From the IMG/VR virus record IMGVR_UViG_2582580934_000010: DNA of 15,672 bases. One strand, 5' to 3'. The position numbers were made by a program, and so were the translations under genes. Below, one piece after another: positions 1,269-12,070 of the stretch (position 1 is the stretch's first letter; each line of letters starts with the position of its first letter). A model generated the notes under the pieces. It saw only the letters and a list, made by a program, of their open reading frames with translations, had not been told where the DNA came from and made no database searches. The stretch comes from a virus (Duplodnaviria; Heunggongvirae; Uroviricota; Caudoviricetes).

Positions 1269-1691
1269 TTACTCCCTGACAGGGTTCGTAGGCCACTCAA
1301 TATCAGGTGCAGTTGATGTATCAACACGGTTCAGCAACACCCGATACTTTTTCCAGGCTTCCAGCAACAAGGTTTCTTCCTCCGTTGCGATCTCCAGATC
1401 CACAGCATCCTGAAGCGGCGCTATATGCTCACTGGCTACCTGCATCAGGCTGTTTTTTGTTTCTTCCGCCTCACGGATCCGGAACAGTTTTTCTGCTTCC
1501 GTATCCTTCACCCAAGCTGTGCCGTTCCACTTCTGAAACTCCCCTTCCGGGGATAACCAGGTGACATTTTCCGGTAATGAGCCGAGTTCAGAAATAAATA
1601 ACGCGTCGCCGGAAGCCACGTCATAAACCGTTTTACCCCGATGATCTTCAACGAGATGCCACGATGCCTCATCACTGTTGAAAACAGCCAC
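1269..1691 (-). pseudogene. tfaD: Tail fibre assembly protein Tfa, 5'-truncated (tfaD-like); the only in-frame start is a GTG that corresponds to an internal Val of lambda Tfa
   Basis: The 140 aa align with lambda Tfa from ...[18 protein letters not shown] to the C-terminus. Manual translation upstream continues in frame as [37 protein letters not shown] (Tfa-like) and then hits a stop at 1884-1886 without any ATG. Confidence 0.8.
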
Positions 1692-1896: not shown

Positions 1897-4355
<2,459 letters not shown>

Positions 4356-4381
<26 letters not shown>

Positions 4382-4901
4382 TCAGCAACCCCGGTATCAG
4401 TTCATCCAGCGCGGCTGCTTTGTTCATGGCTTTGATGATATCCCGTTTCAGGAAATCAACATGTCGGTTTTCCAGTTCCGGAAAACGCCGCTGCACCGAC
4501 AGGGGGATCCCGTCGAGAATACTGGCAATTTCACCTGCGATCCGCGACAGCACGAAAGTACAGAATGCGGTTTCCACCACTTCAGCGGAGTCTCTGGCAT
4601 TTTTCAGCTCCTGTGCGTCGGCCTGCGCACGCGTAAGTCGATGGCGTTCGTACTCAATAGTCCCTGGCTGGAGATCTGTCTCGCTGGCCTGTCGCAGTTC
4701 TTCAACCTCCCGGCGCAGCTTTTCGTTCTCAATTTCAGCATCCCTTTCGGCATACCATTTTATGACGGCGGCAGAGTCATAAAGCACCTCATTACCCTTC
4801 CCACCGCCTCGCAGAACGGGCATTCCCTGCTCCTGCCAGTTCTGAATGGTACGGATACTCGCGCCGAAAATTTCAGCCAGCTGCTTTTTGTTGACTTCCA
4901 T
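4356..4901 (-). CDS. nohD: Terminase small subunit Nu1
   Basis: 181 aa MEVNKKQLAEIFGASIRTIQNWQEQGMPVLRGGGKGNEVLYD..., lambda Nu1-like with the N-terminal winged-HTH that binds cosB. Confidence 0.95.
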
Positions 4902-10212: not shown

Positions 10213-10596
10213 TTAATTAGAGTTATTAACAACGATATCCATCTCTAACCGGATATCTAATGCCATTAACATCCCTTCAATTATGCCCTCAGCCTTCTGT
10301 AACCTTTTCCCGATATAACCATCAGAGCAGCAATGCTTACCTGCCAGTGACATGAATGTCATACCGACTACATAATAATCTACTAATAAATCGTGCAAAT
10401 CGCTGTTGTTCTTTTTCAGACGGGCCATGCACCCGCAAATGATCATCGCGTCATCGTCACAACATTGCGGGCGAGATTTTACTTTTGAAGGAATTAATCC
10501 CTTAAAACCGGCGGCAATGGACGACCAGGTCACATCTTCATGATTATTAGCCGCCCACGCTCCCCAACGTTCAAGAACCATCTGAATATCACGCAT
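10213..10596 (-). CDS. quuD: Late-gene antiterminator Q (phage 21/82-type, QuuD-like), 127 aa
   Basis: The track ORF starts at a TTG at 10611; the ATG at 10594-10596 gives 127 aa [22 protein letters not shown]... with Cys-rich segments ([19 protein letters not shown]). Positioned upstream of the lysis cassette on the same strand. Confidence 0.8.
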
Positions 10597-10721
10597 TAAC
10601 TTTCTCCACAAAATCAGGCCAGCACACCAATCGCCAGTGCGCGATCGATAAAACGAAATATCAGCTCCAGCTGGGAGCCATACTTCTCTTCAAATGCCAC
10701 GGTATCCACAACAGTAGTAAT

Positions 10722-11213
10722 CTACAGATTGCCGTTAAGTTTTCTGGACAACTCCTCAATGGATGGAGGCGATACGTAATCCGGATTTTTATTCATCAGA
10801 AACTTATTTTCACAGTGGAGGCACCTGCTTTTATGAAAAAGCTCATCTTCGCTAACCGGGAATGGTTGAAGTATCGATACTATCTTTTGTCCAAAACATT
10901 TTGGGCAAAGATGCATGGTTATGCTGCCACCGTTCACGATTACCTCCTTCGAGTATACAAAAGTACCCGACTCAAGTTGGTTAAGGATATAGCCTTCCGT
11001 CTGAGCCTCAAAGTTTTCGAATTCTGCAATTTTAGCTTTGAGAGAAGCATTTATTTCTTGATAAGAGCCCACCAGTTCAACGAGAGACACGCATTCGCGC
11101 TGAATAGACGCAAGCTTTGAGTTCAGCTCACCAATAGCCGCATTTACTTCAGCTTGAGTTTTTGCCTCGTTCATTAGTTTTGCAATCTGGGCTGTTTCAC
11201 GAATAGCCGTCAT
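10722..11213 (-). CDS. Hypothetical protein: N-terminal coiled-coil (~70 aa) plus C-terminal CxxC-x21-CxxC zinc-ribbon-like domain; no family recognised
   Basis: The track ORF (259 aa) begins in low-complexity sequence that reads through the upstream repeats. The plausible start is the ATG at 11211-11213 (163 aa, weak Shine-Dalgarno) or the GTG at 11235-11237 (171 aa, AAGAG 8 nt upstream). Heptad-like N-terminus (AQIAKLMNEAKTQAEVNAAIGELNSKLASIQRE...), then HLCPKCFGQKIV...SRCLHCENKF. Confidence 0.5.
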   Translation of the reverse strand: MTAIRETAQIAKLMNEAKTQAEVNAAIGELNSKLASIQRECVSLVELVGSYQEINASLKAKIAEFENFEAQTEGYILNQLESGTFVYSKEVIVNGGSITMHLCPKCFGQKIVSILQPFPVSEDELFHKSRCLHCENKFLMNKNPDYVSPPSIEELSRKLNGNL

Positions 11214-11251
11214 TGCTGCCGTTAATTCAGCGATCACATTGAATACTCTTA

Positions 11252-11297
11252 TTGTTGTTGGGGATATCCAGATTAACCGAATCCTTGTTGTTGGGGA
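11252..11297. repeat. Two direct copies of TTGTTGTTGGGGA (11252-11264 and 11285-11297), 33 bp apart, immediately upstream of the 10722..11213 gene
   Basis: Exact 13-bp match read from the sequence; on the minus strand the motif is TCCCCAACAACAA. Confidence 0.7.
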
Positions 11298-11379
11298 ATA
11301 ACCAGGTCCACCTCGCCTGATGTGGCTAAAAGCAGGCACATAACAGCTAAGTATTTTCAACCAGAGAGAATCCTTAGCG

Positions 11380-11570
11380 TTGTGGTGAATGCGGCTCAGC
11401 GCACGCGGGTTAAGGTTGAGGCTGACAGTCGACCTTCTGTGGACACCCACCCGCCTGGTGTGCAACCTTCGCCAGGCACCGGGAGGCACCCGGCACCACA
11501 ACTTTATGCTGTGTGTAGTCCTGGCGGTACCAGTTTGTACCCTTGCTTCCGGCTGGTACCGTCCTTTTTT
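11380..11570 (+). ncRNA. Candidate structured RNA or leader element: GC-rich non-coding segment with several potential stems, ending in a terminator (stem CGGTACCAG/CTGGTACCG at 11525-11561 plus CTTTTTT at 11564-11570)
   Basis: No plausible protein in any frame (translations are Pro/Arg-rich). Local GC is clearly higher than in the flanks. Helices include GCGGG/CCCGC, CCTGG/CCAGG and CCGGG/CCCGG, with a terminal hairpin plus U-tract on the plus strand. Confidence 0.25.
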
Positions 11571-11571
11571 G

Positions 11572-11658
11572 CAAAACAGAGAAGAGCATCACCGGACGAC
11601 GGGCTCATAACCCAATCCATCCGGGCGGCTGCCACCGCAGGTGTTCTTCTCTGTTTTG
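11572..11658. repeat. 14-bp perfect inverted repeat CAAAACAGAGAAGA (11572-11585) / TCTTCTCTGTTTTG (11645-11658) bracketing a 59-bp GC-rich spacer, about 50 bp upstream of the yfdP-like start
   Basis: Read directly from the sequence. Confidence 0.7.
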
Positions 11659-11707
11659 TGGAGAAACCAACCGACCTTGCAGGGTCGATATGATGAGGAG
11701 CAGCAAA

Positions 11708-12070
11708 ATGGCTAGCGAACGCAGTACTGATGTGCAGGCATTTATCGGGGAGCTGGACGGCGGCGTATTTGAAACCAAAATCGGCGCAGTTCTCAGTGAG
11801 GTCGCTTCCGGTGTGATGAACACGAAAACCAAAGGGAAGGTCTCACTCAATCTGGAAATCGAACCGTTTGATGAGAACCGTGTGAAAATCAAACACAAAC
11901 TCTCATATGTTCGCCCAACTAACCGCGGGAAAATTTCCGAAGAAGACACCACCGAAACGCCGATGTATGTCAATCGCGGTGGTCGCCTGACTATTCTGCA
12001 GGAAGACCAGGGACAATTACTGACTCTTGCCGGTGAACCTGACGGAAAACTCCGCGCAGCAGGTCGTTAA
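11708..12070 (+). CDS. yfdP: Hypothetical protein, YfdP-like (120 aa); first gene of the int-proximal plus-strand operon
   Basis: The track ORF starts at 11543; I chose the ATG at 11708, preceded by GAGGAG with 7-nt spacing, which gives 120 aa MASERSTDVQAFIGELDGG.... Length and neighbours match the K-12 CPS-53 yfdP-Q-R-S-T series as recalled. Confidence 0.55.
   Translation: MASERSTDVQAFIGELDGGVFETKIGAVLSEVASGVMNTKTKGKVSLNLEIEPFDENRVKIKHKLSYVRPTNRGKISEEDTTETPMYVNRGGRLTILQEDQGQLLTLAGEPDGKLRAAGR

What the first reader, a model, noticed from the sequence alone, without database searches (positions are those of the whole stretch)
11252..11297. Two 13-bp direct repeats spaced three helical turns apart in the promoter region of the unknown gene
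TTGTTGTTGGGGA occurs exactly twice, 33 bp apart, ending about 20-40 bp upstream of the candidate starts of the 10722..11213 gene. Same-face direct repeats are typical of activator or repressor operators (lambda cII sites are direct repeats, for example) and of iterons. The downstream halves of the two 33-bp units are only weakly similar.
Basis: seen in the sequence. Interest (0 to 1): 0.4.

Follow-up and report, generated by a model that had tools for sequence, protein, structure and literature searches.

The report
Repeat inside sieB-type promoter/antisense cassette
The two 13-base repeats are real and belong to a conserved prophage control cassette, the one that drives the sieB exclusion gene and its antisense RNA in phages lambda and P22; here it drives a Rip1-like anti-phage gene, and the repeat probably lets an antisense RNA grab the start of that gene's message rather than serving as a protein operator.

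Summary
Observation confirmed. TTGTTGTTGGGGA occurs exactly twice (11252-11264 and 11285-11297), 33 bp apart; a close 13-mer repeat like this arose in 12 of 2000 simulated windows.

It is not an orphan operator. The segment 11250-11340 is homologous to the region just upstream of sieB in lambda, P22 and Rac. Those phages carry an equivalent pair, CTGTAGGGGT twice, 34 bp apart. In the P22 record the sieB RNA start is the first base of the gene-proximal copy. The distal copy lies over the -35 region. Both copies lie inside the published sas antisense RNA.

In about 90 distinct cassettes from viral contigs, five repeat alleles occur. The two copies always match each other, while the flanks do not.

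On the + strand (PL direction), the distal copy forms the 5' arm and GGGG loop of a hairpin with compensatory changes. This hairpin abuts an invariant core that is probably a pseudoknot.

The minus-strand gene (10722-11237, GTG start) is a homologue of the Rip1 defence protein. About 30 other gene families occupy the same slot.

Best reading: the repeat keeps the mRNA 5' end complementary to the antisense hairpin. The cassette identity is well supported; this pairing mechanism is inferred. The operator and iteron readings are not supported.

The parts
11252..11264 (.). Proximal repeat copy. It reads TTGTTGTTGGGGA on the + strand and TCCCCAACAACAA on the - strand. It is the predicted first ~13 nt of the cargo mRNA and the last conserved element before the swappable gene and its SD.
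   Evidence: Exact match. The P22 record places the sieB RNA start on the first base of the equivalent copy. Homology with SfIV/Kati-type phages, which carry a different gene, starts at 11254.
11285..11297 (.). Distal repeat copy. On DNA it covers the -35 region of the cargo promoter. On + strand RNA it is the 5' arm plus GGGG loop of the conserved hairpin.
11283..11306 (+). Conserved hairpin of the PL-direction (sas-like) RNA: CCUUGUUGUU-GGGG-AAUAACCAGG, with the loop at 11293-11296.
   Evidence: dG is -7.2 on the + strand against -2.2 kcal/mol on the - strand. The + strand is the more stable in 41 of 42 two-repeat cassettes. Of 11 pairs, 7 show changes on both sides; 86% of cells are paired against about 40% when partners are slid; 0 of 500 shuffles reach the covariation score.
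11308..11337 (+). Invariant core CCACC-UC-GCCUG-AU-GUGG-CUAAAAG-CAGGC. It is probably an H-type pseudoknot, with helix CCAC/GUGG interleaved with helix GCCUG/CAGGC and an A-rich third loop.
   Evidence: Found in at least 120 viral contigs. The Rac-type variant GCCCGG/CCGGGC is a compensatory change. The wobble variants GCUUG/CAGGC, GCCCGG/CUGGGC and GCCUG/CGGGC pair only on the + strand. The helices are almost invariant in alignment A3, so the covariation support is limited.
11270..11275 (-). Candidate -10 hexamer TAATCT of the cargo promoter. It is positionally equivalent to TAAACT of the mapped P22 sieB promoter.
   Evidence: A TAnnnT hexamer lies 4-8 nt upstream of the proximal copy in 41 of 42 two-repeat cassettes; it is TATAAT in 7 of them. 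The P22 promoter feature ends with TAAACT. The hexamer is too weak for the consensus scan.
11293..11298 (-). Candidate -35 hexamer TTCCCC (17-bp spacer), lying within or next to the distal copy. It matches the consensus poorly.
   Evidence: Position derived from the P22 alignment. This is inference.
11263..11265 (-). Predicted transcription start of the cargo mRNA, 5-7 nt after TAATCT.
   Evidence: By analogy with the P22 sieB RNA start. Not measured for this allele.
11246..11250 (-). Shine-Dalgarno AAGAG, 8 nt before GTG 11237.
   Evidence: Read directly from the sequence.
10722..11237 (-). Cargo gene of 171 aa: an N-terminal coiled coil plus a C-terminal CxxC...CxxC zinc ribbon. It is a homologue of the prophage defence protein Rip1 and belongs to phrog_1244.
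   Evidence: PGAP annotation. phmmer against PDB 9oox_L 'ring interacting pore 1' gives E 2.7e-7 over residues 14-150. phrog_1244 matches at E 9e-60. The start codon is conserved.

Best explanation
The two 13-mers are the two copies of a short motif that is built into the sieB-promoter/sas-antisense cassette of lambdoid phages. Here the cassette drives a Rip1-like defence gene instead of sieB.

Minus strand (gene sense). The proximal copy (11264 to 11252, TCCCCAACAACAA) is the first ~13 nt of the mRNA. A -10 element (TAATCT, 11275-11270) lies 5 nt upstream of it. The distal copy (11297 to 11285) lies over the -35 region.

Plus strand. This is the strand transcribed from PL in intact relatives, and the strand that yields sas RNA in P22. 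On it, the distal copy is the 5' arm and GGGG loop of a conserved hairpin (11283-11306). The hairpin abuts an invariant 30-nt core (11308-11337) that is probably a pseudoknot.

Consequence. The proximal copy repeats that arm-plus-loop. The 5' end of the mRNA is therefore complementary to the loop and 5' arm of the hairpin in the opposite-strand RNA. This is the geometry by which IS10 RNA-IN meets RNA-OUT.

Inferred mechanism. When PL fires, on induction or on superinfection by a related phage, the PL-direction RNA captures the mRNA 5' end through this loop contact. It then pairs across the leader and Shine-Dalgarno sequence and shuts off synthesis of the defence protein. That would give the phage self-immunity, as sas does for SieB in P22.

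Shown here: the homology, the repeat co-variation, the hairpin covariation and strand bias, the conserved -10 position, and the gene's identity.
Taken from records and literature: the P22 RNA start and the sas reads.
Inferred: the start site in this allele, the loop-to-5'-end contact, and its regulatory consequence.

The confidence of 0.6 is for the whole statement. That the repeats belong to a sieB/sas-type cassette I put at about 0.85; the specific loop-to-5'-end contact at about 0.35-0.4.
For: Homology.
- Window 11270-11340 matches lambda 34394-34464 at 76%. That stretch lies immediately upstream of lambda sieB.
- Lambda, P22 and Rac carry CTGTAGGGGT (Rac proximal copy CTGTAAGGGT) twice, 34 bp apart, at the same place.

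P22 anchor.
- The annotated sieB promoter ends in TAAACT. The annotated sieB RNA start, A1728, is the first base of the proximal copy; the distal copy overlaps the -35 region.
- Published P22 small-RNA reads assigned to sas span both copies, the hairpin and the core on the PL-direction strand (PMC13397905 Table 2).

Survey.
- Viral-contig cassettes with the core gave 92 distinct 135-nt modules. With the criteria, 42 of 91 have two repeats, spaced 32-35 bp, ending 8-12 nt from the core.
- Five alleles occur: TGTTGGGGA, CTGTAGGGGT, TTGACTGTGGAA, TTGCATTGGGG and TTGTGGGGG. Both copies carry the same allele in nearly every cassette, with at most one base different (for example L179). Identity of the flanks is near random.

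RNA structure.
- The distal hairpin averages -8.6 kcal/mol on the + strand and -5.0 on the - strand; the + strand is better in 41 of 42.
- 7 of 11 pairs change on both sides, and 0 of 500 shuffles reach the covariation score.

Promoter geometry.
- A TAnnnT hexamer lies 4-8 nt upstream of the proximal copy in 41 of 42 two-repeat cassettes.
- Single-hairpin cassettes have an extended -10 (TGGTATnCT) that would start the mRNA at the loop boundary, which is the same geometry in cis.

Context.
- In the intact relative PhiR49_1, PL (TTGACA-16-CATAAT) lies upstream and reads antisense through the gene and the repeats.
- The gene is a homologue of Rip1, a defence protein triggered by phage portal or small-terminase rings. 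A prophage carrying it would need to silence it on induction.
Against: - No transcription start or + strand RNA has been measured for this allele.
- The promoter is weak: the sigma-70 scan finds nothing in 10600-11800.
- The 126-nt + strand segment as a whole is no more stable than shuffles (z = 0.5). The structural case rests on comparison, not on energy.
- The differences that exist between the two copies do not favour mRNA-to-hairpin pairing over alternatives: 12 of 56 are tolerated, against 18 of 48 for the rival pairing.
- The cis-encoded antisense region already pairs perfectly with the mRNA, so the extra loop contact is not strictly required.
- In this window the immunity region and PL are deleted; a truncated DUF968 gene is joined next to the gene's 3' end. 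The antisense arm may therefore be inactive here.
- The primary sas papers could not be read.
Confidence: 0.6

Rival explanations
1. Protein operator pair. A repressor or activator binds the two same-face direct repeats at -35 and +1 and controls the promoter of the Rip1-like gene.
For: The spacing of 33-34 bp is conserved. The positions over -35 and +1 would suit repression. Identity of the two copies is what one protein recognising both would require.
Against: Five different alleles exist, and they do not track the cargo family. Rip1-like genes sit behind TGTTGGGGA, CTGTAGGGGT and TTGTGGGGG alleles. They do not track immunity type either: lambda and P22 share an allele. The alleles differ from the cI operators of relatives. 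Variation in the distal copy is matched by its 3' arm, and only on the + strand. An operator does not predict that.
Confidence: 0.12
2. Alternative-pairing switch within the PL-direction RNA. The proximal copy competes with the distal 5' arm for the single 3' arm, toggling the hairpin and core between two folds. This could affect processing or stability of the early-left transcript.
For: The proximal copy repeats the arm and loop but has no 3' arm of its own in the window allele: 4 of 11 pairs against 9 of 11 for the distal copy. Differences between the copies are tolerated about as often under this model (18 of 48) as under the best one.
Against: The local hairpin would form first and is far more stable than a stem closing a loop of more than 33 nt. 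In P22-type cassettes the proximal copy has its own partial hairpin. No effector is known.
Confidence: 0.1
3. Relic of a short tandem duplication that moved the promoter 33 bp closer to the gene, with the identity of the copies having no present function.
For: Single-hairpin cassettes look like the ancestral form. The distal unit keeps a relic AAGGA where a Shine-Dalgarno sequence would sit.
Against: Identity is confined to 10-13 nt and is near random in the flanks. The same pattern recurs in five alleles that differ from each other. This indicates maintenance rather than recency.
Confidence: 0.1
4. The repeats are coding: they would give SPTT twice in a longer 243-259 aa ORF, as annotated in the PhiR49_1 phage record.
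For: The frame is open from 11501 and both copies are in frame. The phage record calls a 243-aa ORF.
Against: The start at 11237 is conserved as GTG or ATG. The upstream frame closes after 3 codons in L100 and L005 and after 12 in L112. PHROG and Rip1 alignments begin at the 171-aa N-terminus. The same repeats precede unrelated genes.
Confidence: 0.02

Closest known systems
sieB promoter and sas antisense RNA of phage P22 (also lambda sieB and Rac sieB)
   Same: Homologous DNA: 76% identity to the lambda upstream region, and alignable with P22 across the core, hairpin, -10 and repeats. The arrangement is the same: two short direct repeats 33-34 bp apart, at -35 and +1. In intact relatives the gene is likewise opposite to PL, between the immunity region and the early-left genes.
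   Different: The repeat allele differs (TTGTTGTTGGGGA, not CTGTAGGGGT). The gene is a Rip1-like protein with no SieB domain. No Esc-type second product is established. The + strand RNA has not been observed for this allele, and PL is deleted in this window.
IS10 RNA-IN / RNA-OUT antisense pairing (from my own knowledge of Kittle et al. 1989, not re-read here)
   Same: It works alike on paper. The 5' end of the mRNA is complementary to the loop and then one side of the stem of a hairpin in the opposite-strand RNA.
   Different: There is no homology. Here the hairpin is not the cis-complement of the mRNA end but a second copy 33 nt away. The contact has not been tested.
Direct-repeat operators (lambda CII TTGCN6TTGC) and iterons
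   Same: Short direct repeats in a promoter region on the same helical face.
   Different: The repeats are 33 bp apart, not flanking a -35 hexamer. There are only two copies, with no origin context and no cognate protein. The repeats co-vary with an RNA stem.
Rip1 (ring interacting pore 1), a prophage defence protein of Pseudomonas aeruginosa, PDB 9oox
   Same: The window protein aligns over 137 residues, with the coiled-coil N-terminal half and the CxxC...SILQ...CxxC C-terminal half. Both occur in prophages.
   Different: The relationship is distant (33.8 bits). The Pseudomonas gene lies between the terminase genes, not in the sieB slot. Activity is untested.

Membership tests
sieB-promoter / sas-antisense cassette (P22, lambda, Rac) | Sequence homology with the region upstream of sieB | tested here: met
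   blastn gives 76.4% identity over 71 nt to lambda 34394-34464. A global alignment with P22 runs across the core, hairpin, -10 and repeats.
sieB-promoter / sas-antisense cassette (P22, lambda, Rac) | Two short direct repeats about 33-34 bp apart, the distal one at -35 and the proximal one beginning at the RNA start | tested here: met
   The repeats and their spacing are met. The position relative to the -10 is met by alignment. The RNA start itself was mapped only in P22.
sieB-promoter / sas-antisense cassette (P22, lambda, Rac) | Gene lies opposite to PL, between the repressor/PL and the early-left genes, so PL transcription is antisense to it | tested here: met
   Met in the intact relative PhiR49_1, which is 99.8% identical over window 10703-11800. 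In the window itself the repressor and PL are deleted.
sieB-promoter / sas-antisense cassette (P22, lambda, Rac) | An antisense RNA (sas) accumulates from the PL-direction strand across the leader | not testable with these tools
   Only P22 read data are available. No expression data exist for this allele.
sieB-promoter / sas-antisense cassette (P22, lambda, Rac) | The controlled gene is sieB, with an internal esc start | tested here: not met
   The gene has no SieB domain (PF14163 hits only the lambda protein). It is Rip1-like. I therefore file it as a variant of the cassette, not as a sieB locus.
Transcription-factor operator pair | A cognate DNA-binding protein whose specificity tracks the repeat sequence | tested here: inconclusive
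   No phage protein co-varies with the five alleles. The cargo and immunity types are mixed. Binding cannot be tested here.
Iterons / replication origin | Three or more copies next to an AT-rich or DnaA-box region and a rep gene | tested here: not met
   There are only two copies in the window. The replication genes are absent from this defective prophage.
cI operators (OL) of the parent phage | Similarity to the OR operators between cI and cro | tested here: not met
   The OR and OL sites of PhiR49_1 are of the TGTACC...GGTACA type and lie at L001 3040-3130 and 3845-3885, not at the repeats.
Rip1 defence proteins (for the controlled gene) | Sequence homology to Rip1, including the C-terminal zinc ribbon | tested here: met
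   phmmer gives E 2.7e-7 to 9oox_L, residues 14-150 against 28-159. Defence activity was not tested.
Rfam STnc100 (RNA downstream of the cassette) | Score at or above the family's gathering threshold | tested here: not met
   40.2 bits against a threshold of 47, E 2e-7, over the full model length. It is a probable distant member.

The most novel reading that the evidence does not exclude
The sieB/sas cassette may be a general, portable self-immunity switch for prophage defence genes. In this reading, one conserved hairpin-plus-pseudoknot antisense RNA made from PL silences whichever gene sits in the slot. About 30 families sit there, including Rip1-like and SieB. The co-varying repeat alleles would be specificity determinants of the loop-to-5'-end contact. 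They would decide which superinfecting relatives can switch off a resident prophage's defence.
Probability: 0.3. Interest if true: 0.75.

Novelty: new variant of a known kind. Interest (0 to 1): 0.5.

Why it matters
Prophage abortive-infection genes such as Rip1 respond to phage assembly proteins. The prophage makes such proteins itself when induced, so it needs a way to disarm its own weapon.

In P22, the sas RNA does this for SieB. That has remained an isolated 1993 example.

The present analysis suggests the same cassette serves many unrelated genes and is common: 1423 of 5426 complete E. coli genomes carry this allele. It also points to a specific RNA contact that is directly testable.

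The analysis corrects annotation as well. The 243-aa ORF in the phage records is probably over-extended. The 'frameshifted hypothetical protein' downstream is probably a structured sRNA.

Tried and rejected
- cI operators: the OR/OL sites of the intact relative are unrelated to the repeats.
- Coding repeat (SPTT twice): rejected by start-codon conservation and closed upstream frames.
- Cargo flanked by inverted copies of the motif, as seen in SfIV (L002 2333-2345) and weakly in PhiR49_1: not general. None of 75 cassettes had an 11-of-13 or better match.
- HK022 put-type antiterminator: the core is absent from HK022 20-29 kb.
- Degenerate 33-bp tandem duplication as the whole story: flank identity is near random.
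- Consensus promoter scan of 10600-11800: nothing found.
- Thermodynamic test of the whole 126-nt segment: not better than shuffles on either strand.
- Using differences between the copies to separate the two RNA models: inconclusive.
- Primary sas/sieB papers and the Rip1 paper: not held in the library.
- Pfam, NCBIfam and PADLOC: no hit for the gene.
- PDB search for two other cargo families: no hit.

Full report
**Observation.** TTGTTGTTGGGGA occurs exactly twice on the + strand, at 11252-11264 and 11285-11297, 33 bp apart. There is no third copy at up to 2 mismatches. It is the only exact 13-mer direct repeat within 50 nt in the window. Only 12 of 2000 Markov-simulated windows had one.

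**Setting.** The window is a DLP12-like defective prophage next to tRNA-Arg. It is 100% identical in about a hundred E. coli chromosomes.

PGAP annotates the following, in window coordinates:
- quuD, 10213-10596 (-)
- a truncated DUF968 gene, 10614-10706 (-)
- a hypothetical protein, 10722-11237 (-)
- a 'frameshifted' pseudogene, 11382-11693 (+)
- yfdP, 11708-12070 (+), followed by yfdQRST and intD

Window 10703-11800 is 99.8% identical to the intact phage PhiR49_1. In that phage the order is cro (-), cI (+), this gene (-), then yfdP and onward to int (+).

In PhiR49_1 the cI terminator is followed by a strong PL, TTGACA-16-CATAAT, at L001 3845-3872 on the + strand, with TGTACC-type operators like those at OR. 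PL transcription therefore runs antisense through the gene, then through the repeats, and on to yfdP. The repeats are not cI operators. In the window, cI, cro and PL have been deleted.

**The gene and its start.** The long ORF from 11501 would translate both repeats as SPTT, and the phage records call a 243-aa version. Several results argue against that:
- The codon at 11237 is GTG or ATG in all close homologues.
- The upstream frame closes after 3 codons in L100 and L005.
- phrog_1244 aligns from residue 5 of the 171-aa product.
- An AAGAG Shine-Dalgarno sequence sits 8 nt upstream.

The repeats are therefore non-coding, and the proximal one ends 15 nt from the start codon.

The protein has no Pfam, NCBIfam or PADLOC match. 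It does match the solved structure of Rip1 ('ring interacting pore 1', PDB 9oox_L) at E 2.7e-7 over residues 14-150, including the CxxC...SILQ...CxxC ribbon. A review (PMC13434031) summarises Rip1 as follows. It is a single-protein prophage defence. It assembles around portal or small-terminase rings of an infecting phage and forms a membrane pore.

**Homology with sieB/sas.** A sensitive blastn of 11225-11345 hit lambda 34394-34464, which lies immediately upstream of lambda sieB. Lambda has CTGTAGGGGT twice, 34 bp apart, at the corresponding place. P22 and the Rac prophage of K-12 have the same arrangement.

The P22 record annotates the sieB promoter, which ends in TAAACT. It annotates the sieB RNA start at A1728, and sieB and esc after it. 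A1728 is the first base of the proximal copy read in the gene's sense. The distal copy overlaps the -35 region.

A 2026 small-RNA survey of P22 lists reads assigned to sas, the antisense RNA of sieB. Its 127-nt sequence runs on the PL-direction strand through both copies and 50 nt beyond (PMC13397905). Reviews state that sas switches translation of sieB. I could not read the 1993 primary papers.

**Survey of related cassettes.** The 30 nt beyond the distal copy (CCACC..GCCTGA.GTGG..AAAAG.CAGGC) is nearly invariant. Scanning viral contigs with it returned at least 120 loci and 92 distinct cassettes.

Two-repeat cassettes:
- About half (42 of 91 by the criteria) have two repeats 32-35 bp apart, ending 8-12 nt from the core.
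- Five alleles occur: (T)TGTTGTTGGGGA, CTGTAGGGGT, TTGACTGTGGAA, TTGCATTGGGG and TTGTGGGGG.
- In nearly every cassette both copies carry the same allele, differing by at most one base.
- Identity of the sequence on either side of the motif is near random on the 3' side and 17-67% on the 5' side.

The other half have one hairpin in place of the two-repeat unit.

The gene to the left is highly variable: about 34 protein clusters in 108 loci. These include SieB, the Rip1-like family, SfIV gp36 and many small proteins of unknown function.

Homology between phages with different genes begins at 11254, the edge of the proximal copy. The copy is therefore the last fixed element of the cassette. This allele is present in 1423 of 5426 complete E. 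coli genomes.

**RNA structure.** On the + strand the distal copy folds with the following 10-12 nt into a 9-11 bp hairpin capped by GGGG. In the window this is CCUUGUUGUU-GGGG-AAUAACCAGG (11283-11306), with dG -7.2 kcal/mol against -2.2 for the complementary strand. The + strand is the more stable in 41 of 42 two-repeat cassettes, because of G-U pairs.

The differences between repeat alleles are matched by the 3' arm. For example, the innermost pair is U-A, A-U or G-C, and the third pair is G-U, G-C or A-U. On an alignment of 34 distinct sequences:
- 7 of 11 pairs change on both sides;
- 86% of cells pair, against about 40% when partners are slid;
- none of 500 shuffles reaches the covariation score.

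The proximal copy repeats the arm and loop but lacks a 3' arm in this allele (4 of 11 pairs).

The core can form an H-type pseudoknot, with helix CCAC/GUGG interleaved with helix GCCUG/CAGGC and an A-rich third loop. Both helices are almost invariant in the first set. The Rac-type variant, however, has GCCCGG/CCGGGC. Rare variants (GCUUG/CAGGC, GCCCGG/CUGGGC, GCCUG/CGGGC) keep pairing through G-U on the + strand only. I regard the pseudoknot as probable, not shown.

The 126-nt segment as a whole is not more stable than shuffles.

**Promoter geometry.** In 41 of 42 two-repeat cassettes a TAnnnT hexamer lies 4-8 nt upstream of the proximal copy. It is TATAAT in seven, TAAACT in P22, and TAATCT in the window at 11275-11270. 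The predicted RNA start in the window is 11263-11265, so the mRNA begins (A)UCCCCAACAACAA.

Single-hairpin cassettes have an extended -10 (TGGTATnCT) overlapping the CCACC of the core. In most of them it lies 5-8 nt from the loop complement, so their mRNA would start at the loop boundary.

In both forms, the first nucleotides of the mRNA are complementary to the loop and then the 5' arm of the hairpin in the opposite-strand RNA. In the single-hairpin form this follows automatically. In the two-repeat form it holds only because the proximal copy is kept identical to the distal one.

**Mechanism.** I conclude that the repeats are part of a sieB/sas-type cassette. I propose that their identity is maintained so that the PL-direction RNA can contact the mRNA 5' end through the hairpin loop, as IS10 RNA-OUT does with RNA-IN. 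It would then pair across the leader and Shine-Dalgarno sequence and switch off the Rip1-like gene when PL fires.

For a defence protein triggered by portal or terminase rings, this self-immunity makes biological sense.

How firm each step is:
- Solid: homology with the sieB region and the cassette architecture.
- Inferred by alignment: the RNA start in this allele.
- Hypotheses: the loop contact and its regulatory effect.

An attempt to separate this model from an intramolecular alternative-pairing model, using natural differences between the copies, was inconclusive. In this particular prophage PL is gone, so the gene is probably expressed without the antisense arm.

**Rivals.**
- A protein operator pair is not excluded. 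It does not explain the stem covariation or the strand bias, and no co-varying protein is apparent.
- A functionless duplication relic does not explain identity restricted to 10-13 nt in five alleles.
- Iterons, cI operators and a coding repeat are rejected.

**Novelty.** The kind is known (P22 sieB promoter and sas RNA). This is a variant with a different repeat allele and a different, Rip1-like gene. I did not find the following described in the searchable literature:
- the co-variation of the two copies;
- the conserved GGGG hairpin;
- the candidate pseudoknot;
- the breadth of genes served by the cassette.

That search is incomplete, and the primary papers were unavailable.

Noticed in passing
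window 11349-11572 (+): A structured sRNA-like element lies directly downstream of the cassette. It gives a full-length but sub-threshold match to Rfam STnc100 (40.2 bits against a threshold of 47, E 2e-7). Its closing stem 11379-11387/11494-11502 changes compensatorily in the Klebsiella and Rac relatives. Its 3' part, with terminator hairpin 11525-11533/11553-11561 plus a T-run, is homologous to the K-12 Rac sRNA KilS. PGAP's 'frameshifted hypothetical protein' (11382-11693) overlaps it and is probably not a gene.
   Followed up: partly
window 11572-11658 (+): A long hairpin with 24-nt arms (83% complementary, 39-nt loop) lies just upstream of yfdP. It is also present in SfIV and Salmonella phage F1055. 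Its function is unknown.
   Followed up: no
window 10690-10721: This is the deletion junction of the defective prophage. A truncated DUF968 gene (10614-10706) is joined about 15 nt from the stop codon of the Rip1-like gene. Homology with PhiR49_1 starts at 10703. The repressor, cro, PL and the replication genes are missing.
   Followed up: partly
It is conserved as Met in most close homologues (AAM motif) but is Ile in L061 and L179. It recalls the internal esc start of sieB. A shorter product that escapes antisense control is conceivable but untested.
   Followed up: no
window 11252-11297, both strands: In this allele only, the + strand motif UGUUGUUG resembles the GU-rich seed of the host sRNA GcvB (from memory). 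The mRNA leader CAACAACAA resembles a GcvB target. Other alleles lack this, so it is probably incidental.
   Followed up: no
L002 (SfIV) 2333-2345: There is a third, inverted copy of the motif (TCCCCATCAACAA) on the far side of the cargo region, in front of a small + strand ORF with a strong Shine-Dalgarno sequence. It is not a general feature (none of 75 cassettes).
   Followed up: yes
window 1312-1510 (-): The only Rfam match above threshold in the window is IS009 (RF02111, 221.6 bits), in the tail-fibre-assembly remnant region.
   Followed up: no
L001 (PhiR49_1) 4020-4748 and L002 (SfIV) gp35: Some phage-record ORFs across the cassette are probably over-calls. These are the 243-aa version of the Rip1-like gene and SfIV gp35/gp34, which overlap the repeats and the sRNA region.
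   Followed up: partly
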